64,000 nt of DNA from a virus, in the IMG/VR virus record IMGVR_UViG_3300045988_149572, one strand, 5' to 3'. The position numbers and the translations under genes are program-made. This document shows positions 1 to 43,874 of this stretch, piece after piece (the first letter of the stretch is position 1; every line of letters begins with the position of its first letter). A model generated the notes under the pieces. The model saw only the letters and a program-made list of their open reading frames with translations. It had not been told where the DNA came from and made no database searches.

Positions 1-3000
1 ACAATGAAGAACGAAAATGGCGAGACCATAGTCGTCGGTGTAGATGTGAAGAACGTAGGTCGTGATATGGAGGTGAATGCCATATCAACGATATTCGGAA
101 GGCGAGGTGACGCTAAAAAGACACAGAAAGAGGATGTGCTATATACCGCTGAAAACATTACTCCCGAACAGCGGTCACTTCTCGGTCAGCCCAATTCTGA
201 CCAATATACCGGCGTTCGGGAGAGAAACGTTTCCACCGACAAAGGTAGCGAAAAGGCAGAGAAGAAGCAAAAGAAGCAGAGCGTTTTTGACAAGGCTAAG
301 GAGATTGCCGACAAGGAGGAGAAGAAACGCAAGGCTGAGGACAACTCGGTGCTCGGTCAAGCGACAAGAGCCGTGGGCAAGAAAAAGAAGGTCAACCTGT
401 TCAAATATACGGCTTCAGAAAAAAACAGCAATTCTGCGCTGAGAGGAGTGCATTATGCCAACGGCTATGCGTATGCTTCTGATGGATACATCCTCTTCAA
501 GGAGAAAGCGGACTATCCCAAAGAGTGGGAAGGTACGACCAGAGACAAGGACGGCAATCTGATTGACGGGAAATATCCGGACGCGGAAAAGGCAATACCC
601 AGATTGGTTCACATCCCCGACAAGGAGGTTGAGTCGTTGCCGTCAAAGGAGGTGCTTGACTTCGCCATCGCTGCAAGCAAGAAGTTGAAAGGAGAGGCAA
701 TACCTGTCGCAATTGACGGATTGTTCTTTAATGCAGTCAATCTGAAGAAGTTTCTTGAAGCGGTTGCATCCAAAGGAATGGACAAGGTTGTATACAGGCA
801 TCCTATGTTGTATGCCACCAACGGCAAGGATGAGATTGTAATGATGCCTACAGTGAATACATTGGAGGGCGCATTGGATATTGCCGACAGGATGGAAAGC
901 GCAGGTTTGCCCAAAGAGCAGATTGATGCGTGGAAGGCACACATTGAAGCCGCTGATAAGAAAATGTCGTTTGAGGACTTCAAAAAAGCCGTTGAAAACG
1001 CCAAGAAGGAAGGTGTCAGACCTACGGAAGCTGACAAGCAGGAGAGTAAGGCGGAGGCTGAGAAGCAGAAAGTTGACAAGCAGGGGAATCCAATTGACGC
1101 TGAAGGCAGACTGATAACTGAGAAAGTTGAAGACATCAGCGATTTGTCGGACGATGATTTCAACAATCCGAAACGTTCTGTGGAATTGCCTAAGATACCG
1201 AAGAATATAGATAACGCTCTCGGTGCGAACGGCAAGCCTGTTATTATCAAGAAGAATATATTCGAACGGAACAAGAACGCTCATTCAGACTTAACGGCAG
1301 AGCAGAGCCGAGAAATACTTAAAACAGCGCTGTACTCGGCTGATTTGTATGCTAAGAACCAAAAATCCAAGCGCCCGTTCAATTGGGTAATTATCAAAAC
1401 AAAAGACCACGATGGTAAAAACAAACTTGTTCTCTTGGAAGTTAACGACAACAAGGACAATGTGGAAATTGTGCATTGGCACTATCTTGATGACCGAGGC
1501 CTTGAAAAAATAAAAAAGCAAGCCGAACGTGAGGGCGGGCAACTCCTCATACTGCCTTCCGAAAAAGAAGAGGCTGGCGCCCTTTCCAGCCGTACATCCG
1601 ACTTGCCTGCTGACAAAGGTAGCGAAGTCGGAGGAGAAAAGCAAGAGGCTGAGAAAAAAAGACCCGCTCCGCTATCGGAGCGGATAGAAGATGTCGGAGA
1701 GAAGATTGGCGATGCGAGGAAGGATGTCTGGAAGGAAATAATTGCCAGGATCAAGAATAAAAAACAAGGGATTGAAGAAGCGTTGAAGAAGAGCTCTGCG
1801 GGCAAGCTGTTCTCTTCGTTGTTTGACGAGAAGGAGTTGCTTGAAAGCGGTGTGTCGAATGAGGTTGTGACATTCATCTCAGCGGTAAAGGGCAGTCTTG
1901 GAACGAAACCGAGGTCTTTGTCCAAATTAAAGATGTGGATCAATAAAGTATTGCACCAATATGATATGTGCGAACAGGCATTGGAGAATTGGGAATCCGT
2001 CAAGAAGAAGATTGACGAATGGAAGTACTATAGCCAACCGTTCTATATGTACCGCGCGGCAATGGCAGTCGGAGGATATGAAAGTGGACGTGATGTAGGC
2101 AACGCCGAATTGTGGCAGATTGCTGACGGGTATAGTGATGGAAAGTCCGTAGCCGGGCAATGGTGTGTCCGTAAAGCTGGAGCCTATGATGGAATTTATA
2201 AGACTTACGAGGAAGCAGCCGAGGCTCTGAAGAAATTCGCAGGAGAGAACGCTGCGGTTGACGGCAAAGGGAAACGCAAGGAAGTGAAACTTGCGATATA
2301 CAAAAGGCGGACGGACGGCACTATGTTCATAGCTCCAGAAGGAAAGCCGGATGTGATAATTCAGGATGGATTCAAGACTTTATACGAAGCATCTGCATAT
2401 AAGAAGGAGCATTATGCAGAGATGCAGGAGCGTTATCGGACGTTGATGGATGGCATCAAACCGAAATTCAACGAGAACAGGGAGCGCAAAGGGCGTGACT
2501 GGCGCGGCGGCAAGGATGTGTCGGCGGAGGATTTCCGGGAAGCGTTTGACTTCCGAGGAGTGGAGTTCGGCAACTGGATGCAGCAGAAGGACAGACACCA
2601 GGCGTTGAACGAATGCTACGACTCTCTTATGGACTTGGCGATGGTCTGTGGAGTGTCGCCGAAGGCGTTGTCGCTTGGAGGGAAGTTGGCAATGGCATTC
2701 GGTGCGAGAGGAGGTGGAAAATTCAACGCTCATTACGAGCCGGATAAGGTTGTGATAAACCTTACAAAGACCAAAGGTGCAGGAAGCCTTGCGCACGAAT
2801 GGTTCCACGCCATTGACAATTATTTCAATATGCAAGGTTGGGACGAATTTGCCACAGAAAGCACGCGGAACGTTGAACGCAAGGAAATGGCTGAAGCGTG
2901 GAAGGATTTGGTGCGTGCGATAAACGGAAGTGATTATTTCAAGCGGTCAGACAAATACGCCCGTCTTAAAGGCTCCAGATATTGGATTGAACCGACTGAG

Positions 3001-6000
3001 CTTGGAGCGAGAGCGTTTGCGGTGTGGGTTGAGAACAGACTGTCGAAGTACGGCACGATAAACGACTATCTCGCCAACAATCCACGTCTAGTGGATGAGA
3101 AGGCAAGCGACGCAGAAAAGAAATATGCACCGTACCCATTCGACAAGGACGCTGACTGGATGGACGAGAAATTCGGCAGGTTGTTCGAGGTGATGCAGGA
3201 GCGTGTCGACGAGGAGACAGGTAAGCACATTCTGTACAGCAGAAATAAAGCTGCCGGGCACGAGAAGACGGAGTTGACAGCGGAGGAGCGGGAACTGAGG
3301 GACAACCTTGTGGAGCGTATGCGCAAGGGTGGACTTGACGTGGTGACTGATTCGGAAGAGATGCAAAGAGTCATAGACACCGAGAACGAGCGGACAAGGA
3401 TGATGGGTGCCGGTTCAGTCCGTGAGCATCGTGTGTACCACGGCAGCGGAGCGGACTTCGATGCTTTCGACCACTCGCATATGGGCGAGGGAGAAGGTGC
3501 GCAGGCTTACGGCTGGGGTACTTATGTGACCGAGGTGGAAGGCATCGGCAGGACGTATGCTATTCAGAATACAACGAAGCACAACGATGCTTTACGTGCA
3601 TTGCAACACGATGTAGATGCTATATCTGACCAACTTAACAGACACCGGGATGATTTGAAGTATGACGAAGAGCAGTTAAAACGTGCTAACGAATGGAGAG
3701 CCGAGGCAGAGCTTGACTATGAATTGTTCAAAGATGAAGCTGAGGAATTAAAGGAAAAATATGGAGAGTCTTCTCCTAAATACCGAAATCATCTGTTTAA
3801 TGACATCTATACAGATGAAATGAAACGTGCTCAAAGTTCAGTTAAGAGTATGGAAGAGTCAATCCAGTATCGCAAGGAGAAAATCGCAGAGCTGGAAAAG
3901 GCATTAAAGGATAAGCAAGCGGAGATTGATGAACTGCCGAAGGAGTTTCCACGCCACCTTTACACTGTAGAAATCCCCGATGACAACGGCAGCAACTATC
4001 TGGATTGGAATGGCCACCCTGCTGAATCTTTACTGAAAGATGTAGGTTCGTTTTTGGAGAGTGAAGGCTTTGAGAGGGTACAGGATAACCCTGTCAGATA
4101 TGAGAAAGGCGAAAGCACCGTTGTTTTGAACCCAAATGCGACTGGAGCTGATTTGTATGCGGAATTGCGTGAGGTTCTTGGCAGCGACAAGAAAGCGTCA
4201 CAAGCATTGGCAGAGTTAGGCTGTATTGGCATCAAATATCCTGCTGACAATATGCGTGGTGGCCGTGAGGATGGCGCAAAGAACTACGTTATCTTCAACG
4301 AGAATGATGCGAAGATAACCGACCATACACGCTTTCTGCGTACTGCGGACGGAGAGGTGTACGGCTTGGTGAAGGACGGACGCATATACCTTGACCCAAA
4401 GGTGGCTACAGCGGAGACTGCGGTACACGAATACACGCATCTGTGGGGCGATATGCTGAGGCGCAAGGACTCCGAGCAATGGAGCCACACGGTGAAGGAA
4501 CTGAAGAACAGCGTTCTTTGGGAGGAAGTGAAGGAGTTGTATCCGGAGCTGAAGACCGATGACGAGATAGCGGACGAAGTGTTGTCGACGTTCAGCGGAC
4601 GCAGAGGAGCGGAACGCTTGCGCGAGGAGGCACGCAGGGTTGCCGATGGCGAGGGCGGAGTGTTCACAAAGGCGAAGGCTATCGAGACGTTGGAGCGAGT
4701 GAAGGAAGCCATAGCGCGGTTCTGGGAAGGCGTGGCGAGGATGTTCGGCATCAACCGCTACCGCAGTGCCGAGGAGTTGGCTGATATGGCAATGAAGGAC
4801 TTGCTTGATGGTGTAGACCCAAGAAAGATGGGTAACAACGAGAAAGGCATTGGATTCAGTGCAAAACAAAAAAGAGCACTTGAAACCGTAACGATGGCAG
4901 ACAAATCCACCAATAAAGCCACTGCCATTTCAAGTGCTGATGGCGCAAAGGTACAAAATAATCTTGAAATACTTGCTGAAAGCTACAACAATCGTTCCAA
5001 TAAAACCAAAGGGTTCATAACGGACTTGTCTCAAGCTCTAAACTTGGAGCGACATGAAGCAAGTCATTATGGTACATTTGAGACGCAGAAAGGTAAGTTG
5101 GTTACTATCCGTGTGAGCAATCACAATGCACGTGTTTCATTATTTGACAAGAATGGCGAGAATGATGGCATTAGTATTGTTATATCAAATCATAAGAACA
5201 AGGGACTTTTGAACGATGGCAATGCCCATATTATAGAATTCTTCTACTCCAAACAATCACTTCAAAGAGCCGATGGTAAACCATTGTCGGATATAATCCG
5301 TTCTGTTTCCGAAGTTTTGTATAGTGGTGAGTTTAAGGACACGACAGGTCTTGCTGAGCGGCAGGAGGTGAACGGTGATGATGTGATTCGCTTCCAGTTC
5401 ATCGGTGAGAAGGGTGCTGCGGAAGCCGACCATGCCGAGGAGGTTTTTGCAAACGAAAATGTAGAGCGCAGTGTAAGAGAGAATCCTAAAAGCGAGGAGC
5501 CACGCTTCAGCAGAAAGCCGGGCGAGAGCATCTTCGACTATGCGTCACGTGTGTCGGAAGACGGCTTGCTATTCCGAGATGGTGGTACTGAGTACGATTT
5601 CCCAGGCGAAGACGACGCTCAGAAACTTTACAACGCTGCGGTTGACGGCAGAAAGTCGAGGGCAATAGAATCGTGGCAGGATGAGATGTTCCCCGTGAAG
5701 ATGCTCCAAGAGGCGATTGAGAAAGCCACGGGCGAGAAGATAGCCGACTTCGAGAACGCATATCTGTTAGAGAATCAACTCGGCTCGGCAGGAAACGCAA
5801 CGTTGGAGAAGTATGCGAGAGAGGTTCAGAATCCAATGCGCAAGGTGTATCTTGACATGCTCAAAGCCAAGTTTGATGGAGGGAGCAAAGTTACAAAGTC
5901 GGACATCAACAAGTATGTGATAGCGGTTCACGGATTGGAACGCAATAAGTATATGGCGGATAAGAACAAGGGGTTGCCCGATGCTCGCAGGGACTATTCC

Positions 6001-8685
6001 GGTTTTACCGCATTGTTCGGCAATGGAGAGCAAGTAGAGGTTGAAGAACTTGAACGTAGAGCGGAAGAATATATCGGGAAGTTTGAGGATGCAGTGGGTA
6101 AAGACAAAGCGGATAAGCTATGGTCGCTTGTGGATGAATCAAGACAACGCACGTTGGACGAACTTGTGAGGTCAGGCTTGGTAAGCGGCGATGTCGCAGA
6201 TGAATGGTTGCGTCGCTTCGAGCACTATGTCCCGTTGCAAGGCTTCTCAGAGGAGGTTATAGGAGAGGACAGAAACGCTAATTTCGAAAACCACATCACG
6301 GGGCGTATGTCCGAGGCAAGAGACCCTTTGGCAACACTCGTGAATATGGAGTATGTTGCTGTAACGAGCGGCAATCACAACAGAGTGAAACAGGCTCTTT
6401 ACAACCTTGCGCTCAACCATAGAACAAACCTTCTCTCTGTAATGCCGATGTTCTCTGTAAAGAATCCAATTACTGGTGAATGGGAGGATGCGGTTCCGCA
6501 GATTGATGAAACGATGTCACCGATTGAGAGACAACGGGAGGTTGATAAGTTTATCAAGCAGATGCGCGTACGTATGCGCGAGGAGAAAGACCTTCCAGAA
6601 TCGGACAAAACTGTCAAGGATGCAAGAAAGGTAAGCGTTGGTAGTAAAGTATTGCCTAAAGCTATGCCAGACTTTATTGTGAGGATGAAAGTCAACGGCA
6701 GACAATATGCGGTTGTCCTCAATGGCAATCCAAGAGCTGCGCAGGCTATAAATGGACGGTTGAAGGAACACCCCAACAAGGCATTGCAGAAGATAAGCGG
6801 AGTGACGAGGTTTATGTCAGCTGCGGTTACTGCTTGGAATGCTGCGTTTATGTTAAGCAACTTTGCAAGGGATGTGCAAGCGGCGAACGCTTTTGCTTAT
6901 TCCAACGAGGGAGCAAAATATGCGGCTATGATGGATGCTGAAATCCATAAAAATATGTCGTTGACTTCATTGGGCAGAGATTTGTTTGGGATGAAAAATA
7001 AAGGTATTTATAAGTTATATTATAAATACAGACACAATCAGCTTGACATGAGTAATGAACGGGAAAGATTCTTCAAAGAGTTTGTTGACAATGGAGGTGA
7101 GACCGGGTACACACAGATGGTTGACATTGATAAAATCGCCAAACAGATGCAGAAAGATGAATTTTCTGCAATCAAAGCGATTAAATCGGTCGGCAAGTTC
7201 ATTGAATTGGCAAACAAGGGCTTTGAGAACGCGACACGTTTCGCAGCGTATGCAACAAGCCGAAAAATGGGTAAGTCTGTTATGCAGAGCATTAACGACG
7301 CAAAAGAGATAAGCGTCAATTTCAACAGACACGGAAATGGGCGGAACGGATATGTCATCGCCAAATCGTTGTATCAATTCTTGAATCCTACAATACAAGG
7401 ATTGGAGAAACAATTGCGTACAATAAAAGAACACCCATTAGAGGGCACAGCCGTGTTAATTGCGACACCGATTGCAATAGGATTTGCCATCCCGCTTGTA
7501 AATATCGGATTGGCTATGTTGTCGGGCGGAGGTGACGATGACAAAAAATACTATTGGTCACTTAGCGATTGGACACGCAGAAACAATCTCATTATTGGTG
7601 TGAATGGTAAATTTATAAAAATTCCGTTGCCACCAGAGTTGAGGGTGTTTTATGGAATTGGAGAGATGATTGCGTCGAAGATGAGCAACCCATATGACAA
7701 GACGAATCTTTTGACTGAAATCCCGAAGCATATCAGTGAAACATTGCCGTTCAATGACACAAACAGTACATTTCCATCGTTTGTTAAACCATTTATTGAA
7801 TCAGAGGTTACAGACAAGGATTTTATGGGCAGAAAGATTACTGGGCGTTCTGACTATAACACCCAAGACCCGGAATGGAAACGGGCGGGCTACAACACAG
7901 ACGATGAGTATATAGCCGCCGCCAAATGGTGGCACAGCCTGTTTACCGACAACGACAATGAGAGAGGCTCGTGGTTTGCGGAAATCAACCCATCAGTAGC
8001 AGAACATCTTATCAAGGGTTATACAGGAGGAATTGGAAGTATAGTAGGACAAGTGTACACAACGGTAAAGGCAATAGCCAAAGGCAATGAAAAAGATTAT
8101 TCTGATTCAAGAAATTGGCCTATTGTCAACAGAGTTTATGTCCAGACCACCAAAGAAGATGCAGTGAAAAAAACTACAAATACCGCTTATCGTTTCTATC
8201 AAGACAATTACAAAAACTATGAGCATACGTTTAAAGAAACTCTTAAAGATGAAAAATCCGGTATATTCCAAAAGGCTCAAAGAATTTCAAATATGGTTGA
8301 GACTTCGGAATACAAGCGGTACAGAATGACAGAGCCATTTATAAAAGCAGACAAACTTCTTTGGGATGAAATAAAGGCACTCAAAGAGACAGATGACAAA
8401 GAATCGCTTGAGTGGATTGAAAAAGAACAGACTCGGCTTAGGAGTGTTCTTGTAGAAGCCTCTGAAAAATTTGATATTTATGACAACGCAGGACTTACGT
8501 ACAAACTGGACAGAATGTCAAAGCCAGGTGCTTATAAATCGGATTTGAAGATTGATGTAAAATCAGCACCAAATAAGGATATGCGTAAATTCGCAAAAGA
8601 GTACAATGTCAAGATCGGCAAATACAAACAACAAACCTATAAAGATGAACAAGAAATAAAGAAACATATTCGTGTTAATAAATAA
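1..8685 (+). CDS. giant polyvalent (multi-domain, virion-delivered type) protein, C-terminal >2890 aa; 5' end lies outside the window
   Basis: One frame open from base 1 (ACA precedes the first ATG at 4) to the stop at 8683-8685. HExxH zincin motifs HEWFH (2794-2808) and HEYTH (4426-4440). A YHGSGADFDAFD ... NYVIFNEND block (about 3430-4310) resembles the ART-like module of polyvalent proteins. Clamp-like RGVHYANGYAYASDGYILF near 450-510. Hydrophobic segment about 7444-7530. Sits directly upstream of the portal gene. Confidence 0.8.
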   Translation, partial: TMKNENGETIVVGVDVKNVGRDMEVNAISTIFGRRGDAKKTQKEDVLYTAENITPEQRSLLGQPNSDQYTGVRERNVSTDKGSEKAEKKQKKQSVFDKAKEIADKEEKKRKAEDNSVLGQATRAVGKKKKVNLFKYTASEKNSNSALRGVHYANGYAYASDGYILFKEKADYPKEWEGTTRDKDGNLIDGKYPDAEKAIPRLVHIPDKEVESLPSKEVLDFAIAASKKLKGEAIPVAIDGLFFNAVNLKKFLEAVASKGMDKVVYRHPMLYATNGKDEIVMMPTVNTLEGALDIADRMESAGLPKEQIDAWKAHIEAADKKMSFEDFKKAVENAKKEGVRPTEADKQESKAEAEKQKVDKQGNPIDAEGRLITEKVEDISDLSDDDFNNPKRSVELPKIPKNIDNALGANGKPVIIKKNIFERNKNAHSDLTAEQSREILKTALYSADLYAKNQKSKRPFNWVIIKTKDHDGKNKLVLLEVNDNKDNVEIVHWHYLDDRGLEKIKKQAEREGGQLLILPSEKEEAGALSSRTSDLPADKGSEVGGEKQEAEKKRPAPLSERIEDVGEKIGDARKDVWKEIIARIKNKKQGIEEALKKSSAGKLFSSLFDEKELLESGVSNEVVTFISAVKGSLGTKPRSLSKLKMWINKVLHQYDMCEQALENWESVKKKIDEWKYYSQPFYMYRAAMAVGGYESGRDVGNAELWQIADGYSDGKSVAGQWCVRKAGAYDGIYKTYEEAAEALKKFAGENAAVDGKGKRKEVKLAIYKRRTDGTMFIAPEGKPDVIIQDGFKTLYEASAYKKEHYAEMQERYRTLMDGIKPKFNENRERKGRDWRGGKDVSAEDFREAFDFRGVEFGNWMQQKDRHQALNECYDSLMDLAMVCGVSPKALSLGGKLAMAFGARGGGKFNAHYEPDKVVINLTKTKGAGSLAHEWFHAIDNYFNMQGWDEFATESTRNVERKEMAEAWKDLVRAINGSDYFKRSDKYARLKGSRYWIEPTELGARAFAVWVENRLSKYGTINDYLANNPRLVDEKASDAEKKYAPYPFDKDADWMDEKFGRLFEVMQERVDEETGKHILYSRNKAAGHEKTELTAEERELRDNLVERMRKGGLDVVTDSEEMQRVIDTENERTRMMGAGSVREHRVYHGSGADFDAFDHSHMGEGEGAQAYGWGTYVTEVEGIGRTYAIQNTTKHNDALRALQHDVDAISDQLNRHRDDLKYDEEQLKRANEWRAEAELDYELFKDEAEELKEKYGESSPKYRNHLFNDIYTDEMKRAQSSVKSMEESIQYRKEKIAELEKALKDKQAEIDELPKEFPRHLYTVEIPDDNGSNYLDWNGHPAESLLKDVGSFLESEGFERVQDNPVRYEKGESTVVLNPNATGADLYAELREVLGSDKKASQALAELGCIGIKYPADNMRGGREDGAKNYVIFNENDAKITDHTRFLRTADGEVYGLVKDGRIYLDPKVATAETAVHEYTHLWGDMLRRKDSEQWSHTVKELKNSVLWEEVKELYPELKTDDEIADEVLSTFSGRRGAERLREEARRVADGEGGVFTKAKAIETLERVKEAIARFWEGVARMFGINRYRSAEELADMAMKDLLDGVDPRKMGNNEKGIGFSAKQKRALETVTMADKSTNKATAISSADGAKVQNNLEILAESYNNRSNKTKGFITDLSQALNLERHEASHYGTFETQKGKLVTIRVSNHNARVSLFDKNGENDGISIVISNHKNKGLLNDGNAHIIEFFYSKQSLQRADGKPLSDIIRSVSEVLYSGEFKDTTGLAERQEVNGDDVIRFQFIGEKGAAEADHAEEVFANENVERSVRENPKSEEPRFSRKPGESIFDYASRVSEDGLLFRDGGTEYDFPGEDDAQKLYNAAVDGRKSRAIESWQDEMFPVKMLQEAIEKATGEKIADFENAYLLENQLGSAGNATLEKYAREVQNPMRKVYLDMLKAKFDGGSKVTKSDINKYVIAVHGLERNKYMADKNKGLPDARRDYSGFTALFGNGEQVEVEELERRAEEYIGKFEDAVGKDKADKLWSLVDESRQRTLDELVRSGLVSGDVADEWLRRFEHYVPLQGFSEEVIGEDRNANFENHITGRMSEARDPLATLVNMEYVAVTSGNHNRVKQALYNLALNHRTNLLSVMPMFSVKNPITGEWEDAVPQIDETMSPIERQREVDKFIKQMRVRMREEKDLPESDKTVKDARKVSVGSKVLPKAMPDFIVRMKVNGRQYAVVLNGNPRAAQAINGRLKEHPNKALQKISGVTRFMSAAVTAWNAAFMLSNFARDVQAANAFAYSNEGAKYAAMMDAEIHKNMSLTSLGRDLFGMKNKGIYKLYYKYRHNQLDMSNERERFFKEFVDNGGETGYTQMVDIDKIAKQMQKDEFSAIKAIKSVGKFIELANKGFENATRFAAYATSRKMGKSVMQSINDAKEISVNFNRHGNGRNGYVIAKSLYQFLNPTIQGLEKQLRTIKEHPLEGTAVLIATPIAIGFAIPLVNIGLAMLSGGGDDDKKYYWSLSDWTRRNNLIIGVNGKFIKIPLPPELRVFYGIGEMIASKMSNPYDKTNLLTEIPKHISETLPFNDTNSTFPSFVKPFIESEVTDKDFMGRKITGRSDYNTQDPEWKRAGYNTDDEYIAAAKWWHSLFTDNDNERGSWFAEINPSVAEHLIKGYTGGIGSIVGQVYTTVKAIAKGNEKDYSDSRNWPIVNRVYVQTTKEDAVKKTTNTAYRFYQDNYKNYEHTFKETLKDEKSGIFQKAQRISNMVETSEYKRYRMTEPFIKADKLLWDEIKALKETDDKESLEWIEKEQTRLRSVLVEASEKFDIYDNAGLTYKLDRMSKPGAYKSDLKIDVKSAPNKDMRKFAKEYNVKIGKYKQQTYKDEQEIKKHIRVNK

Positions 8686-37930: not shown

Positions 37931-38527
37931 TTAAATAAAATCGTAAATGGCAATATCGCCTTGTGGGTTCTGTCTGTTCTTCTTGTTGCGCCTCCAAGCA
38001 TAGGCGAACGGCATAATCTTCTCGTACCACCGTGCGTCCTCCATCATGGAGCCTACATACTGGGTAAGGTTCGGCTTGTAGTCAAACTCCACAATCTGCG
38101 CCCAGTCGCCCTTGCGGTTGCCACCGAAGAGGCGTATTATGTTGTCTTTACTCCACTCTTGGCAGAGCTCCTTGAAGTAGAAAACGTTGTGGTTTTGCTT
38201 GTCTGGGTCTTCGAGAATCAGACGGACAAAGGCAGGTTGATTGTCGCGAATTATCAGTCTGTACAACTTCACCAAGACATCAGAAGGCCCGACCTTGTGT
38301 GAGCATTCGTAGAGTCCGTGGGCAAAGTAGGGTTCGCCCTTTTTGGTGAAGCGGATGCGCAAGTCGAAGCATCGTGCGCCATCGTGCCACTGTTCCTCGA
38401 TTGTCTTGCGCTGACACCGAGCAAACGGAATCATAAACCATCCATACCAATGTTCAGGTGGTAAAAACGTCATTGAATTGTGTGTGCCGATTATCGGCGT
38501 TCCTTGTTTCTGTTCCATTTTCTTCAA
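37931..38527 (-). CDS. PI-PLC X-domain-like phosphodiesterase
   Basis: GTHNS (His16), CFDLRIR (Arg57) and FAHG (His70). The His-Arg-His spacing (41 and 13 residues) is close to that of bacterial PI-PLC catalytic residues. Confidence 0.5.
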   Translation of the reverse strand: MKKMEQKQGTPIIGTHNSMTFLPPEHWYGWFMIPFARCQRKTIEEQWHDGARCFDLRIRFTKKGEPYFAHGLYECSHKVGPSDVLVKLYRLIIRDNQPAFVRLILEDPDKQNHNVFYFKELCQEWSKDNIIRLFGGNRKGDWAQIVEFDYKPNLTQYVGSMMEDARWYEKIMPFAYAWRRNKKNRQNPQGDIAIYDFI

Positions 38528-40927: not shown

Positions 40928-41363
40928 TGTCTTTTAGTTTTGTTAGATTATGTCAAAAATGTCCAGTTGTCTTGGTTCTGTCACTCGTCCGGAGGGGAAG
41001 AACAATTGCTCGAAGATATGTTCCATACAGGCGACCACAATTGAGTTGCCTGCGAGCTTGTATTGCTGGGACTCCGAGATGTACATCGGCTTCCCGTTCT
41101 TTCTGTGACCCTTGACGTAGTTTTTGATCTTGTTGTAGTCCTCATCTGAGACATCCATCAGGCGGAAACACTCGCGCGGAGTAAGTCTGCGGATGCGATA
41201 TGGAAACGTGTCACCGTAGACGTTGTTAGGTCTGGCGGACGTGAGGGTTGACCCCACGGATTCGGCGAACTCGGTCTGTAGTTCTGCGACACCGCTTTTC
41301 GCTTTGTCCTGCCTATAAGGGCGCAGGTTGTTGTCCTTGTCCACCGACACTCCACAAGGCTGA

Positions 41364-41422
41364 CGGCGAACCTCCTCCGCTACTCGGCGAACCTCCTCCG
41401 CTACTCGGCGAACCTCCTCCGC
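41364..41422. repeat. 21-bp tandem repeat, 2.8 copies, in frame (AEEVRRV x3)
   Basis: cggcgaacctcctccgctact repeated at 41364, 41385 and 41406 (last copy partial). Confidence 0.9.
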
Positions 41423-42221
41423 CTTCGGCTCCAAGACTGCGTTTTCCTCACCCGTGAGGAGAGTGCCGATGATGTCGCCCTTGTTGCCCTGTACTCTCCC
41501 TCGGCGAGTACGGGATGACGGCTGAGAGATGTTGACCGCACCGTACTCCTCCACCTCCGCAAAGCCTTCCCTTGTGTTGGCTTTGATGCGCAAAGGTTCA
41601 AGCAGCATATTGTCTTTCTGCACGCTTGTTATAGTGTTGGACACACCGTCTGTTCTTGGTTCCATCTGTTGCATATATTTCCTTTGTATGTTAATTCTGT
41701 GATTCTCATAATCCTTTCTCAGAAGTTTGGCTTCTTCGGTGCGCTTGGGAGTCAATACATTAGGCTCCCTTCCTCTACTCGCCACCACGAACGGCTCGGC
41801 GATAGAGACGGTCTCTCCGTGGTTGTTCATATCAACAATCGGCTTTGGCTCCAACACATATTGAGCAGTGTTGCCCCTTGTCCCCGTGCTGCAATGGATG
41901 GTGTTCGCTACCTCTTTCGTGTGGTAGTTCTCAATCTTTCCTTTCTTGTCGCGTGAGTAACTCACAATCTTAGGTTCTTCTTTCATCTCGATTATTTTAG
42001 GGATAAGCCCTCCCCCCGACGGGGTGGTGATGGCAGGAGAGACACCATCCGTTATGTACATTCTATATGCCCGATGAAGACCGCTCTCCACGGTCATCAC
42101 TCTGTCCGTCTTCTTCATTGCTTGAATCTTCACTAACGAAATACATACAATTGGCATTCACCCTCGCCTTGATGGTTCCGGCTATGTCGTTGACGCATTG
42201 GTTGTATGTGTCTATCCATAG

Positions 42222-42234
42222 CCCCCCCCCCCCC
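42222..42234. repeat. homopolymer C13 (G13 on the coding strand)
   Basis: Counted directly. Lies inside the broken part of the methyltransferase gene. Confidence 0.95.
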
Positions 42235-42331
42235 TATCAATTTTCGGGAGCATCCGCTGAAGCCGCTTGCCCCCTGTCGCTTGTTTCTTCATTTCTCAGT
42301 CTGTTTTGATCGTAATCTTCCACGATGACCA

Positions 42332-42341
42332 CCCCCCCCCC
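42332..42341. repeat. homopolymer C10 (G10 on the coding strand)
   Basis: Counted directly. TRD-like reading switches frame exactly here. Confidence 0.95.
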
Positions 42342-42628
42342 TATATCCGTGGTTGCGGAGGCATCGTGCCACCCCGTTGCAGGATATGATGTCCTCGCTT
42401 CTATATCCCGTCTTCTCGATCACTATGACCTTGTCTGTTTCCATTTTCCTCGTCTGCTATAGTTACTATACTTCCGTGGTTCAGCATCACCGTCGGAGAG
42501 ATTCCGTCAGTACCGATGACGATACCGCTTATCTGACTCTTCGGGTAAAGCCTTCCGACACGGTTTATTGTTCTTGGATGTAATTGTCGTCGTTCCTCAT
42601 CACGCCTGCTTGGATTGTCTTCGCTATA

Positions 42629-42637
42629 CCCCCCCCC
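42629..42637. repeat. homopolymer C9 (G9 on the coding strand)
   Basis: Counted directly. Encodes GGG in ...EYTEGGGIAKTIQ. Confidence 0.95.
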
Positions 42638-43382
42638 TCGGTGTACTCAAACTTGTGGTTGGTGGTGGTTTCGGCGTTCCATTTCAGCCGCCCCAATATC
42701 ACGTCAGTCTTAAGATAGTATCTATCCTCGACACTCTCACCGTCGTGGTATGTAACAAGTACGTCACGGAGCCGTCTTTCCAACGGGAACGGCTGAGGAA
42801 AATCATACTTGATGCCGCTCGGGAACAACTGTGGGAACTTGGCGGACGCATCCTTGCGGATGCTTAACGCGAACACCCTCACACGGTTCTGCGGAACACC
42901 GAAATCTTTAGCGTTTATCTTCTTCCAGTATGTCTTGTAGCCTTGCTCGTCAAGGTAGTCAATCCATCGCTGGAAGTCGGGCATAAACTTCTTGGAAGCC
43001 AACGCCGCCACGTTCTCGAGTAAAAGGAATGACGGACGCTTCGTCTCTATCGCCCTCCTACACTCCCATAGCAATGATGAGCGCGAACCACTGCCTTCCT
43101 GCAAGCCTCGCTGAAGTCCGGCATTGCTGATGTCCTGACAAGGGAAGCTGTAGGTGAACAAGTCGAAGTCAGACACTCGCTCCCAATCGACCTTGCTTAT
43201 GTCACCGTGGTTGCATTCGGCATATTCGGGGAACACGGCATTGTGGGCGGCTATTGCGTCATTGTCAATCTCGCTCCATCCGACAAGCTGGAAATCCGCA
43301 CCGCCAGCGTGGCGCCGTGCGACTCGGCGCAGAGCCATCATCTGCGAGCCGTAGCCGGCGAAAGCCTCGAACACTCTGATTC

Positions 43383-43874
43383 TCATATCAATCCGTTATT
43401 TGTGCTTCCGAAGCCGCCTTTTCCGCGCTCGGTAGCTTGGTTGAACAACTCTTCCTCATCCACGACCTCGACACCCTCATAGCTCACGGGGGTAAGCACG
43501 AACTGCGCCACCTTCATTCCTGGATGAATTACTTCTACGCATCTGCCGACATTGATGAGATGTATGTATATCTCGCCTTGATAGTCCTCGTCGACAACGC
43601 ACGCTCCGACAACGAGCGTTCCTTTGGGGGCGTTTGCCTTTGGCGTCAGACCAGCGCGCCGCATAGCGTCTGTGGATGTCGCCACGCTGGAGCGGTTCAT
43701 CGCAATCAGCGCGTAGCCGTGCGGCACTTCCGCCCTTATACCGCTCGGCACGAGGATGTCAGTCCCCGATGTCAGCCGAGCCGTGAAGCCTTTCGGCACG
43801 TAGAAGTCCAGCCCTGCCGAGCATTCAGTCCCTCTTGTGGGGGTCTTCACCTCCCTAATCTTCGTTATCTTCAT
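43383..43874 (-). CDS. dut: dUTP diphosphatase
   Basis: AGLDFYVP, NRSSVA, VVDEDYQGEI and RGKGGFGSTN are the dUTPase motifs, in order. Confidence 0.9.
   Translation of the reverse strand: MKITKIREVKTPTRGTECSAGLDFYVPKGFTARLTSGTDILVPSGIRAEVPHGYALIAMNRSSVATSTDAMRRAGLTPKANAPKGTLVVGACVVDEDYQGEIYIHLINVGRCVEVIHPGMKVAQFVLTPVSYEGVEVVDEEELFNQATERGKGGFGSTNNGLI

What the first reader, a model, noticed from the sequence alone, without database searches (positions are those of the whole stretch)
40943..43386. Cytosine-5 methyltransferase with about nine target-recognition-like modules
Motifs I, IV, VI and VIII lie in ORF 42565-43386. Motifs IX and X lie in ORF 40943-42157. The variable region between VIII and IX therefore spans roughly 560 codon-equivalents, several times that of ordinary enzymes.

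Within that region a short signature recurs about nine times, of the form [D/E]-x-[V/I/A]-[S/A/G]-x-T-[I/L] followed by a short tail:
- GGGIAKTIQAG
- DGISPTVMLNHG
- GVARCLRNHGYRGGG
- DIAGTIKARVN
- DGVSPAITTPSGGG
- EVANTIHCSTG
- DGVSNTITSVQKD
- DIIGTLLTGEEN
- SVGSTLTSARPN

This is the organisation known from multispecific Bacillus-phage C5 methyltransferases, which carry tandem TRDs each giving one specificity, but with far more modules. It suggests broad self-protection against many host restriction systems.
Basis: partly seen in the sequence, partly recalled or inferred. Interest (0 to 1): 0.7.

Follow-up and report, generated by a model that had tools for sequence, protein, structure and literature searches.

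The report
Phase-variable split multi-module phage cytosine methyltransferase
A gut-bacteria virus carries a DNA cytosine methyltransferase with about nine target-recognition modules, split over several reading frames and punctuated by unstable runs of G, which probably let the virus population keep changing whether and where it methylates its DNA.

Summary
They do not lie in one gene that needs "frame repair".

On the minus strand there are four units:
- an N-terminal ORF with motifs I-VIII (42565-43386);
- two mini-ORFs;
- a 404-aa C-terminal ORF with six recognition-like modules plus motifs IX-X (40943-42157).

These lie in three reading frames. No combination of ±1 changes in tract length joins them.

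They are the only G/C runs of 7 or more in the 64 kb.

In 44 related human-gut phage loci, all 135 such runs lie inside this gene. Tract lengths range from 7 to 15 between genomes that are otherwise identical. Four deletion types (five loci) have both ends placed at tracts.

Each segment shows purifying selection in its own frame. Several modules resemble experimentally mapped Bacillus-phage recognition domains.

Best reading: a split (M.AquI-like), multi-module, orphan phage C5 methyltransferase of a temperate Bacteroidales phage. Its expression and module usage are switched by slippage at the poly-G tracts. Tract hypermutability needs read-level confirmation, and enzyme activity is untested.

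This is a new variant of known kinds.

The parts
42565..43386 (-). ORF-A (alpha): catalytic N-terminal half with motifs I, IV, VI and VIII. It is 273 aa in the present tract state. Its start overlaps the dUTPase stop codon (ATGA).
   Evidence: Pfam PF00145 positions 2-227, E 5e-48. Motif coordinates. 202 of 379 variants are synonymous in its own frame.
42629..42637 (-). Poly-G tract T1 (G9), encoding GGG of '...KFEYTEGGG'. Its length sets the C-terminal tail of ORF-A. Length 3n+2 gives 253 aa ending GGV*. Length 3n gives 273 aa with module m1. Length 3n+1 gives 328 aa with module m2.
   Evidence: Lengths of 7-12 are seen in relatives. Alpha ORFs of 253, 273 and 327-330 aa are all observed. The 273-aa cluster has 726 members; the 327/328-aa clusters have 277.
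42568..42628 (-). Module m1 (IAKTIQAGVMRNDDNYIQEQ), the tail of ORF-A in the G9 state.
   Evidence: Own-frame counts are S10/N12/X1, against S5 and S6 in the other frames. It is homologous to 'EGEGIAKVVQTSSGTMSDDNFIKE' of P0345.
42401..42628 (-). Alternative tail of ORF-A, read one frame over. It consists of a linker (YSEDNPSRRDEERRQLHPRT) and module m2 (VGRLYPKSQISGIVIGTDGISPTVMLNHGSIVTIADEE), ending in a stop at 42401-42403. It has no start codon of its own and is reachable only through T1 at length 3n+1.
   Evidence: m2 counts in its own frame are S23/N7/X0. m2 scores z 13.6 against the T5 module and z 9.0 against an SPR TRD. In P0345, m1 and m2 are in one frame.
42289..42444 (-). Mini-ORF B (METDKVIVIEKTGYRSEDIISCNGVARCLRNHGYRGGG...), 51 aa in the present G10 state. 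At G9 or G12 it is 68 aa and ends VVIVEDYDQNR...PEN, with its stop at 42237.
   Evidence: Relatives P0002 and P0018 start at METDKV and run to the C-terminus. The start is homologous to the MKTD... start of the first TRD mini-ORF in distant relatives.
42332..42341 (-). Poly-G tract T2 (G10).
   Evidence: Lengths of 6-12 are seen in relatives.
42063..42292 (-). Mini-ORF C. MKKQATGGKRLQRMLPKIDR precedes T3. The present G13 state ends GGGGYG* at 42212. The G8/G11/G14 state continues as LWIDTYNQCVNDIAGTIKARVNANCMYFVSED... to 42063 (76 aa).
   Evidence: Uninterrupted homologues of 56-57 aa occur in L149 and L145. Own-frame counts are S9/N4 before T3 and S16/N13/X1 after T3.
42222..42234 (-). Poly-G tract T3 (G13), preceded by TGATAG in one frame.
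   Evidence: An otherwise identical 8,155-bp ENA contig has G15. Lengths of 7-15 are seen in relatives.
40943..42157 (-). ORF-D (beta), 404 aa; the likely start is M14 at 42118. It holds six fused TRD-like modules followed by motifs IX and X. The modules are DGVSPAITTPSGGG, EVANTIHCSTG, a remnant DMNNHGETVSIAEP, VLTPKRTEE...DGVSNTITSVQKD, DIIGTLLTGEEN and SVGSTLTSARPN.
   Evidence: Pfam positions 252-322, E 7e-6. 222 of 420 variants are synonymous in its own frame. Database gene calls start at MKKTDRVM (P0001).
42008..42017 (-). Interrupted remnant of tract T4 (GGGGGGAGGG). It is a pure G8-G12 run in some relatives.
41792..41833 (-). Remnant of the T5 module. The window lacks 72 bp that carry tract T5 (G8-G11) in relatives. 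ORF-D in this window therefore has no pure tract and is locked open.
41364..41426 (-). In-frame 21-bp tandem repeat, three copies (AEEVRRV), forming a linker between modules.
   Evidence: Relatives have 2-3 copies. One unit is lost in L155, which is identical over the surrounding 7 kb.

Best explanation
**What it is.** An orphan DNA cytosine-5 methyltransferase cassette of a temperate phage, probably of a Bacteroidales host, from the human gut. Its target-recognition region has grown to about nine recognition-like modules and is divided into separate translation units.

**The units.**
- Alpha (ORF-A) carries motifs I-VIII.
- Two mini-ORFs (B and C) each carry one module.
- Beta (ORF-D) carries six fused modules plus motifs IX-X.

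**How it would work.** Alpha and beta would assemble into an active enzyme, as the two subunits of M.AquI do.

**The switches.** Three runs of G in this window, up to five in relatives, sit in the Gly-Gly-Gly codons of module cores. They act as contingency loci: slipped-strand mispairing during replication changes their length and so the downstream reading frame.
- T1 chooses among three alpha tails: none, module m1, or a linker plus module m2.
- T2 completes or truncates mini-ORF B, and T3 does the same for mini-ORF C.
- In relatives, T4 and T5 open or close beta, which is a true on/off switch.

**Module loss.** The tracts are also the ends of deletions that remove blocks of modules.

**Net effect (inferred).** A phage population that is heterogeneous in whether and at which motifs its DNA is 5-methylated. 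This hedges between protection from host restriction enzymes and exposure to methylation-dependent restriction.

**Shown here:** the anatomy, the exclusiveness and length polymorphism of the tracts, the frame-specific selection, and the similarity of some modules to known recognition domains.

**Inferred:** slippage within a population, alpha/beta assembly, activity, and the specificity of each module.
For: **Tracts are exclusive to this gene.**
- They are the only G/C runs of 7 or more in the window.
- In 44 related loci, all 135 such runs lie in the gene's 103.6 kb and none in 234 kb of flanks.

**The runs are not a by-product of coding glycine.**
- GGG makes up 10% of Gly codons in 14 long ORFs.
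- The five other Gly-Gly-Gly tripeptides in the window use no GGG codon at all.

**Tract length changes while the rest of the sequence stays fixed.**
- Window versus L154: 8,155 bp with 0 mismatches; the only difference is T3 at 13 versus 15.
- Window versus L155: over 7 kb the only differences are T1 9 to 8, T2 10 to 8, T3 13 to 10, and one 21-bp repeat unit.
- L008 versus L033: four of the five differences in 7.5 kb are in tracts.
- Ten samples with an identical beta protein have T1 of 9-12, T2 of 7-11 and T3 of 8-11.

**All three alpha states occur in nature**.

**Purifying selection acts in each unit's own frame.**
- Alpha: 202 of 379 variants are synonymous. Beta: 222 of 420.
- Middle segments: 87 of 196 synonymous in their own frames, against 77 of 392 in the other frames (Fisher p 9e-10). 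Stop-creating variants are 5, against 34.

**The split is clade-wide.** Nearly all hits at 55-62% identity to alpha are N-terminal halves of 220-340 aa.

**Deletions end at tracts.** T1-T4, T1-T3, T2-T5 and T3-T5 deletions have both ends placed at tracts.

**Some modules resemble mapped Bacillus recognition domains**.

**Natural and engineered split C5 enzymes are active** (PMC3404938, read).

**A poly-G tract in NgoAV hsdS switches specificity** (PMC9577141, read).
Against: - No reads were available. Within-population switching is not shown, and homopolymer lengths in assemblies are error-prone. In the L008/L033 pair all four tracts differ by exactly -1, at 6.8x coverage, which could be technical.
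- Alpha and beta are about 400 nt apart rather than overlapping as in M.AquI. Assembly and activity are untested.
- Mini-ORFs B and C are off in this window, and C is off in most relatives (T3 is G9 in 12 of 22).
- Some copies are clearly decaying: L010 has an alpha ORF of 141 aa, and L147/L148 have nonsense codons.
- The excess of synonymous changes could partly reflect recombination with lineages where the modules are intact.
- The frames tested in the middle segments were chosen partly by resemblance to recognition domains.
Confidence: 0.6

Rival explanations
1. Decaying pseudogene. The gene was once a single-chain multi-module enzyme. The poly-G tracts are simply mutational hot spots that killed it, and the fragments are no longer expressed.
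For: - Only 1 of 28 complete relatives is a single ORF (L004).
- Fixed frameshifts exist relative to homologues where m1 and m2 are in one frame (P0345).
- Intact single-chain enzymes exist elsewhere (P0198 and P0073).
- Some copies carry extra lesions.
- L011 has lost nearly the whole gene.
Against: - Purifying selection acts on alpha, beta and the middle segments, each in its own frame.
- The beta ORF stays open for 350-500 codons in most genomes.
- N-terminal-half ORFs are the rule across a clade at 55-62% identity.
- The runs of the rare GGG codon are maintained instead of being interrupted.
- The phage lineage is abundant in many human samples and keeps the same layout.
Confidence: 0.2
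2. One full-length multispecific enzyme is made after all. The frames would be joined at the RNA or ribosome level, by transcriptional slippage at the G runs plus programmed ribosomal frameshifting at the other frame changes.
For: - Long homopolymers can cause RNA polymerase slippage (general knowledge).
- Each segment is conserved in its own frame.
- Paralogy of modules implies an ancestral continuous array: m2-m3 resembles the post-T4 region, and m1-m2 are continuous in P0345.
Against: - Three frame changes (near 42570, 42440 and 42120) are not at homopolymers, and no X XXY YYZ slippery heptamer was seen by eye in the sequence. No pattern or structure search for frameshift signals was run.
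- The frame read after T2 ends in TGA TAG immediately before T3.
- It would take five or more recoding events in 500 nt.
- Relatives start beta-type ORFs at conserved Met codons, METDKV and MKKTDRVM.
Confidence: 0.08
3. Sequencing or assembly artefact. The gene is intact and the frameshifts are homopolymer miscalls.
For: - Poly-G runs are hard to call.
- The L008/L033 pair differs by -1 at all four tracts.
- T3 is 13 versus 15 in two assemblies of the same genotype.
Against: - Enumeration of all ±1 states of the three tracts never gives one ORF.
- The three non-homopolymer frame changes are shared by 27 of 28 complete relatives from independent JGI, ENA and Logan assemblies.
- Other long genes in the window are intact (2,893, 895 and 813 aa).
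- Tract lengths track genotype. L163, L164 and L166 share 9/(10-11)/9, and L161 equals L167.
Confidence: 0.04

Closest known systems
Multispecific C5 methyltransferases of Bacillus subtilis phages (M.SPRI, M.Phi3TI, M.Rho11sI, M.H2I)
   Same: - They are phage-borne orphan C5 enzymes.
- The variable region between motifs VIII and IX holds several tandem recognition domains with a (R/Q)VY..G(I/V/L)(S/A)xT(L/I)T..G.G..K I x V E core.
- Window modules m2 and m5, and the relatives' T5 module, score z 8-12 against these domains.
- The 'VLTPKRTEE...' module parallels their conserved 'VLTPEREEKRQNGRRFK...AFTVNT' segment (sequences).
   Different: - The Bacillus enzymes are single polypeptides of 439-503 aa with 2-4 such motifs.
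- Here there are about 9 motifs over 560 codon-equivalents, split into at least four translation units in three frames and interrupted by poly-G tracts.
- Overall identity is low, with only 27% of the C-terminal ORF aligning at 37%.
M.AquI (and fragment complementation of M.BspRI, M.BsuRI, M.HhaI and M.SssI)
   Same: - It is a two-polypeptide C5 enzyme.
- The larger subunit has motifs I-VIII plus the proximal variable region.
- The smaller subunit has the distal variable region plus motifs IX-X (PMC3404938).
- The split lies in the same place as between ORF-A and ORF-D.
   Different: - M.AquI has a single specificity, adjacent or overlapping genes and no repeats.
- Here beta carries six modules, two mini-ORFs lie between alpha and beta, and homopolymers change the alpha tail.
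- Assembly is untested here.
Phase-variable methyltransferases of bacteria, especially the Type I system NgoAV, whose hsdS1 poly-G tract changes specificity
   Same: - A G homopolymer inside the specificity-determining coding region changes what is fused downstream, so it changes specificity and not only on/off state (PMC9577141).
- Tract lengths differ among otherwise similar genomes.
   Different: - Those systems are chromosomal N6-adenine enzymes with one tract.
- Here the enzyme is a phage C5-cytosine enzyme with 3-5 tracts placed at the cores of recognition modules.
Poly-G contingency tracts in phages (Campylobacter Fletchervirus receptor-binding proteins; T2/T4 contingency loci; a poly-G in a methylase gene of Bordetella phage BPP-1)
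   Same: They are hypermutable homopolymers in phage genes proposed as bet-hedging devices. A methylase case is mentioned but, according to that preprint, was not studied (PMC12633550).
   Different: - Those cases concern receptor-binding or other genes, usually with one tract per gene.
- No multi-tract, multi-module methyltransferase was found in the literature searches.

Membership tests
DNA (cytosine-5) methyltransferase (Pfam PF00145) | Conserved motifs I (FxGxG), IV (PCQ), VI (ENV), VIII (QxRxR), IX (RxxTxxE) and X (GNS) in that order | tested here: met
   All six motifs are present and in order, but on two ORFs.
DNA (cytosine-5) methyltransferase (Pfam PF00145) | Catalytic transfer of methyl to C5 of cytosine | not testable with these tools
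   This needs expression and bisulfite, EM-seq or nanopore mapping.
Multispecific Bacillus-phage-type C5 methyltransferase | Several tandem recognition domains homologous to the mapped TRDs | tested here: met
   m5 scores z 11.7, m2 z 9.0, the T5 module z 8.1 and m3 versus m5 z 6.0. The profile hit is E 6e-5. m4, m10 and m11 match only at motif level.
Multispecific Bacillus-phage-type C5 methyltransferase | All domains within one polypeptide between motifs VIII and IX | tested here: not met
   There are at least four units in three frames, and no tract combination gives one ORF. Rare relatives are single ORFs with fewer modules (L004 and P0073).
Multispecific Bacillus-phage-type C5 methyltransferase | Each domain confers one methylation specificity | not testable with these tools
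   This needs methylome mapping of module deletions.
Split two-subunit C5 methyltransferase (M.AquI type) | Alpha carries motifs I-VIII plus the proximal variable region; beta carries the distal variable region plus motifs IX-X, as separate genes | tested here: met
   This describes ORF-A and ORF-D. Both are under purifying selection. N-terminal-half ORFs are clade-wide.
Split two-subunit C5 methyltransferase (M.AquI type) | The subunits assemble into an active enzyme | not testable with these tools
   A structure model of an intact relative failed (pLDDT 30). No complex prediction tool was available.
Simple-sequence-repeat contingency (phase-variable) locus | A long homopolymer in coding sequence, over-represented relative to the genome | tested here: met
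Simple-sequence-repeat contingency (phase-variable) locus | Tract length polymorphic among otherwise near-identical genomes, changing the reading frame | tested here: met
   with ORF consequences. Lengths come from assemblies, so some differences may be miscalls.
Simple-sequence-repeat contingency (phase-variable) locus | High-frequency reversible switching within a clonal population | not testable with these tools
   No reads or cultures were available.

The most novel reading that the evidence does not exclude
**The reading.** In this phage clade, recognition modules work as free-standing, individually switchable specificity subunits. They would serve a methyltransferase core that has no recognition domain of its own.

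**Evidence from distant relatives (L138-L149).**
- A circularly permuted core of about 440 aa (motifs IX-X, then I-VIII) is followed by 9-11 mini-ORFs of 45-90 aa.
- Each mini-ORF is one recognition-like module. Each sits in the +1 frame of the previous one and is joined to it by a recurring '...GAATATGAT-stop' junction with an embedded ATG.
- The mini-ORFs are under purifying selection in their own frames: 129 of 319 variants are synonymous, against 117 of 638 in the other frames (p 5e-13).
- Some carry G runs at their GGG site.

**Link to the window.** Mini-ORFs B and C of the window are homologues of such units.

**Consequence if true.** A C5 enzyme would obtain many specificities by exchanging small trans-acting recognition subunits, each phase-variable on its own. 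No precedent was found: the small subunit of M.EcoHK31I carries motif IX, not a recognition domain.
Probability: 0.2. Interest if true: 0.9.

Novelty: new variant of a known kind. Interest (0 to 1): 0.75.

Why it matters
- **Phage counter-defence.** Phage methyltransferases are a main defence against restriction enzymes, and methylated DNA is itself a target of methylation-dependent nucleases. A phage that can stochastically change its methylation repertoire would explain how temperate gut phages cope with the large and shifting restriction repertoires of Bacteroidales.
- **Contingency loci in phages.** It would extend contingency loci, only recently recognised in phages, to epigenetic self-marking.
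- **Practical point.** Gene callers and annotators will report this abundant locus as two 'partial' methylases, and assemblies will disagree at the tracts.
- **Enzyme engineering.** The module array is a natural library of C5 recognition domains that could be mined for new specificities. The mini-ORF arrays in relatives allow a direct test of whether a C5 recognition domain can act in trans.

Tried and rejected
- **Close phage relatives.** A megablast of the region against 50,697 phage records found none. Protein-level hits reach at most 37-57% identity over short stretches.
- **Representative genomes.** A scan of species-representative bacterial and archaeal genomes with the C-terminal ORF found no relative. 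Host inference therefore rests on capsid homologues.
- **Bacillus recognition-domain profile.** A narrow profile of Bacillus recognition-domain cores hit only one module significantly. Pairwise scores with shuffling were more informative.
- **Structure prediction.** AlphaFold2 of the intact relative P0073 with a 16-sequence alignment gave mean pLDDT 30 and pTM 0.21, which is unusable. No fold search was run.
- **Invertible or shufflon-type switching.** Only short, imperfect inverted repeats occur in the region.
- **Stop-codon recoding.** All three stop codons are used at junctions, and the window's long genes are intact under the standard code.
- **M.EcoHK31I as a precedent for a free recognition subunit.** My recollection was wrong. 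Its small subunit carries motif IX.
- **Liu et al. 2004 on phage BPP-1.** The paper could not be read because it is not held. The BPP-1 methylase poly-G is cited only through PMC12633550.
- **First masking attempt.** My first attempt to mask tracts in a pairwise comparison merged columns across a deletion. It was redone by direct pairwise alignment.
Full report
**1. The observation**

All coordinates refer to the minus strand. ORF 43386-42565 (273 aa) matches the N-terminal two thirds of the Pfam C5 methylase profile (positions 2-227, E 5e-48). ORF 42157-40943 (404 aa) matches the C-terminal end (positions 252-322, E 7e-6).

Motifs I, IV, VI and VIII lie in the first ORF and motifs IX and X in the second. 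The distance from motif VIII to motif IX is 560 codon-equivalents.

They are spread over three reading frames. A looser core, [VIA][SAG]xT[ILV], occurs six times, against about one expected.

**2.

The 400 bases between the two large ORFs, and the end of the first ORF, carry three runs of G on the coding strand:
- G9 at 42629-42637 (T1);
- G10 at 42332-42341 (T2);
- G13 at 42222-42234 (T3).

No other G or C run in the 64 kb exceeds six bases. Each run encodes the Gly-Gly-Gly of a module core.

GGG is the rarest glycine codon in the phage, at 10% of 649 Gly codons in 14 long ORFs. The five other Gly-Gly-Gly tripeptides in the window use no GGG codon at all. The homopolymers are therefore not a side effect of coding glycine.

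**3. Frame anatomy**

- ORF-A runs through T1 and stops 20 codons later, after module m1 (GGGIAKTIQAGVMRNDDNYIQEQ).
- One frame over, the sequence after T1 is open for 78 codons and encodes module m2 (...VGRLYPKSQISGIVIGTDGISPTVMLNHGSIVTIADEE). It has no start codon of its own.
- A mini-ORF B (METDKV...GVARCLRNHGYRGGG) crosses T2.
- A mini-ORF C (MKKQATGGKRLQRMLPKIDR-GGGG-) crosses T3. In another tract state it continues as LWIDTYNQCVNDIAGTIKARVN....
- ORF-D starts at 42157, or more likely at MKKTDRVM at 42118. It holds six fused modules plus motifs IX and X.

Three of the frame changes are not at homopolymers. Enumerating all 27 combinations of -1, 0 and +1 at the three tracts never gives a single ORF:
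- ORF-A becomes 253, 273 or 328 aa;
- B becomes 49, 51 or 68 aa;
- C becomes 26, 52 or 76 aa;
- ORF-D is always 404 aa.

In this window the fourth tract is interrupted (GGGGGGAGGG, 42008-42017). The 72 bp carrying the fifth tract are deleted.

**4. Relatives**

Scans of viral, metagenome and other public contigs gave 57 loci of the same phage lineage, almost all from human gut samples. Hundreds of protein clusters also matched.

In the 44 loci with a complete gene, all 135 G/C runs of 7 or more lie inside the gene (103.6 kb). None lies in the 234 kb of flanks. The tracts sit at five orthologous positions with near-identical flanks, and their lengths range from 6 to 15.

Comparisons of near-identical genomes show the contrast most clearly:
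- An ENA contig identical to the window over 8,155 bp differs only at T3 (15 versus 13).
- Another contig is identical over 7 kb except for T1 (8), T2 (8), T3 (10) and one unit of the 21-bp repeat.
- L008 and L033 differ at 5 positions in 7.5 kb, and four of those are tracts.
- Ten contigs from ten samples encode exactly the same beta protein. They have T1 of 9-12, T2 of 7-11 and T3 of 8-11, with 0-2 substitutions within a haplotype.
- Their alpha ORFs were called at 254, 273, 274 or 328 aa.

In the large protein collection, the 273-aa alpha cluster has 726 members and the 327/328-aa clusters have 277.

Caveat: these are assembly consensus lengths. Some differences may be miscalls, for example the uniform -1 in the low-coverage L033. 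The spread of up to four or five bases, its correlation with genotype, and the accompanying 21-bp repeat change argue that most of the variation is real.

**5. The pieces are not junk**

Across 28 complete relatives, variants are mostly synonymous in the frame of ORF-A (202 of 379) and of ORF-D (222 of 420). In the other frames the share is 15-18%.

In the middle segments, taken in the frames that encode the modules, 87 of 196 variants are synonymous, against 77 of 392 in the other frames (Fisher p 9e-10). Stop-creating variants number 5, against 34.

m2 is the clearest case (S23/N7/X0). It can be translated only when T1 has length 3n+1.

A more distant homologue (P0345) has m1 and m2 in one frame. 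The lineage therefore carries a fixed frameshift between them, which a +1 change at T1 compensates.

The practical result is a three-way choice of alpha tail: none, m1, or a linker plus m2.

**6. Are the modules recognition domains?**

I fetched the four classical Bacillus phage enzymes (SPR, phi3T, rho11s and H2). Local alignment scores were compared with 300 shuffles:
- the T4 module against the phi3T domain, z 11.7;
- m2 against an SPR domain, z 9.0;
- the relatives' T5 module against SPR, z 8.1;
- m3 against the T4 module, z 6.0;
- m2 against the T5 module, z 13.6;
- m8 against m9, z 9.1.

A profile of Bacillus cores finds the T4 module at E 6e-5 in a six-frame database of the window. The last module aligns with the TL motif of M.MpeI.

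Modules m4, m10 and m11 are similar only at the level of the short motif. The module ends (hydrophobic strand followed by E-P/E-Y) coincide with the 'KIAVEY' ends seen in the Bacillus sequences.

**7. Tracts as deletion junctions, and intact variants**

Four independent deletion types have both ends placed at tracts: T1-T4 (L003, L004), T1-T3 (L024), T2-T5 (L028) and T3-T5 (L034). For the T1-T4 fusion the junction flanks were checked directly.

L004 is thereby a single 622-codon ORF, while L003 carries the same deletion with one more G and is out of frame. P0073 (590 aa) is another intact, shortened form. P0002 and P0018 fuse mini-ORF B to ORF-D.

**8. The wider clade**

A search with the catalytic half finds 2,147 proteins at E of 1e-60 or better. 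Nearly all of the listed hits at 55-62% identity are N-terminal halves of 220-340 aa. A separate alpha is therefore the rule in this clade, not an accident of this phage.

A library-wide search with the module array finds 1,062 clusters. These include intact single-chain enzymes with about nine modules: P0198 (817 aa), and P0222 (1,039 aa, with an apparent intein-like insertion in motif IV).

Contigs whose catalytic domain is 45-61% identical show a third layout:
- a core of about 440 aa with circularly permuted motifs (IX-X before I-VIII);
- followed by 9-11 mini-ORFs, each one module and each in the +1 frame of the previous one;
- joined by a recurring '...GAATATGAT-stop' junction with an embedded ATG.

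These mini-ORFs are under purifying selection in their own frames (129 of 319 synonymous, against 117 of 638; p 5e-13). Some carry G runs at their GGG site.

The window's mini-ORF C has uninterrupted 56-57-aa homologues there. The starts METDKV and MKKTDRVM resemble the MKTD start that overlaps the core's stop codon by ATGA.

**9. Context**

The window is nearly a whole phage genome of about 64 kb (its own beta protein sits on a 64,404-bp contig). It encodes:
- a portal protein, large terminase and capsid;
- an integrase at 29354-30649;
- DnaB, ERF and a dUTPase immediately upstream of the methylase.

Capsid homologues at 60-78% identity are mostly in Bacteroidales genomes, including isolates of Bacteroides, Phocaeicola and Segatella. 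The host is therefore inferred to be a gut Bacteroidales.

No restriction endonuclease domain was recognised near the gene.

**10. Mechanism and rivals**

The best-supported reading has three parts:
- a split, multi-module orphan C5 enzyme;
- alpha and beta that assemble as in M.AquI;
- poly-G tracts that act as contingency switches.

T4 and T5 switch beta on or off. T1 chooses the alpha tail, and T2 and T3 complete or truncate the free modules. The tracts also serve as points of module loss.

The anatomy, the tract statistics, the selection and the module homology are shown here. Slippage within a population, subunit assembly, activity and specificities are inferred.

The rivals are:
- a decaying pseudogene (0.2);
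- RNA- or ribosome-level recoding into one protein (0.08);
- a sequencing artefact (0.04).

**11. Comparison with known systems**

- It works like the Bacillus multispecific enzymes in carrying many recognition domains. It fails their defining single-polypeptide feature.
- It matches M.AquI in where the enzyme is split (PMC3404938).
- It parallels NgoAV, where a poly-G tract in hsdS changes specificity (PMC9577141).
- It also parallels the poly-G tracts of Campylobacter phages and the recently proposed phage contingency loci. That preprint mentions a poly-G in a methylase of phage BPP-1 as unstudied (PMC12633550).

I found no report of a multi-tract, multi-module phage C5 methyltransferase. 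I therefore rate it a new variant of known kinds, with interest 0.75. The trans-acting module hypothesis is the most novel reading not excluded by the evidence.

Noticed in passing
window 36289-37350 (-) and 35477-36067 (-): An IS110-family transposase (DEDD_Tnp_IS110 plus Transposase_20) sits inside the phage genome. Next to it is a 196-aa ORF that matches only the C-terminal part (profile positions 152-217 of 221) of an N6/N4 DNA methylase. This second phage methylase may have been truncated by the insertion.
   Followed up: no
window 41364-41426: An in-frame 21-bp tandem repeat (AEEVRRV, three copies) lies in the beta ORF. Relatives have 2-3 copies, and one unit is lost in a contig identical over the surrounding 7 kb. 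It is a second fast-changing repeat in the same gene.
   Followed up: partly
L138-L149 (for example L145 3117-6120 and L148 3006-6588): Gut phage contigs carry a circularly permuted C5 methylase core followed by a staircase of 9-11 recognition-module mini-ORFs. Each mini-ORF is in the +1 frame of the previous one, with a recurring EYD-stop/ATG junction. They are under purifying selection in their own frames.
   Followed up: partly
P0222 (1,039 aa; not in the window): This distant multi-module homologue has an insertion of about 230 aa between the P-C and Q of motif IV ('GSPCFTEEAL...IFHNCQDFS'), which looks like an intein.
   Followed up: no
L147 and L148, locus positions 3378-3380 and 3678-3680: The permuted core in these two near-identical contigs carries two in-frame nonsense codons (TAA in place of Tyr, TGA in place of Trp). 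Its recognition-module mini-ORFs remain open. The two contigs differ from each other only at two G tracts, apart from length at one contig end.
   Followed up: partly
window 4-8685 (+): A single 2,893-aa ORF at the start of the window matches only PHROG families of unknown function (phrog_14770, phrog_616).
   Followed up: no
L012 1104-1841; L157 5773-6291; L162 5044-5568: In relatives, genes near the methylase carry Pfam hits to counter-defence families: Anti-Pycsar Apyc1/Lactamase_B, Tad2-like and Nmad5. This suggests the methylase sits in an anti-defence region. The equivalent window genes have no Pfam hit.
   Followed up: no
window 37547-37925: About 378 bp present in the window are absent from the otherwise 99.3% identical contig L155. 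This is an indel in the region of ORFs 37549-38001 and 37931-38527.
   Followed up: no
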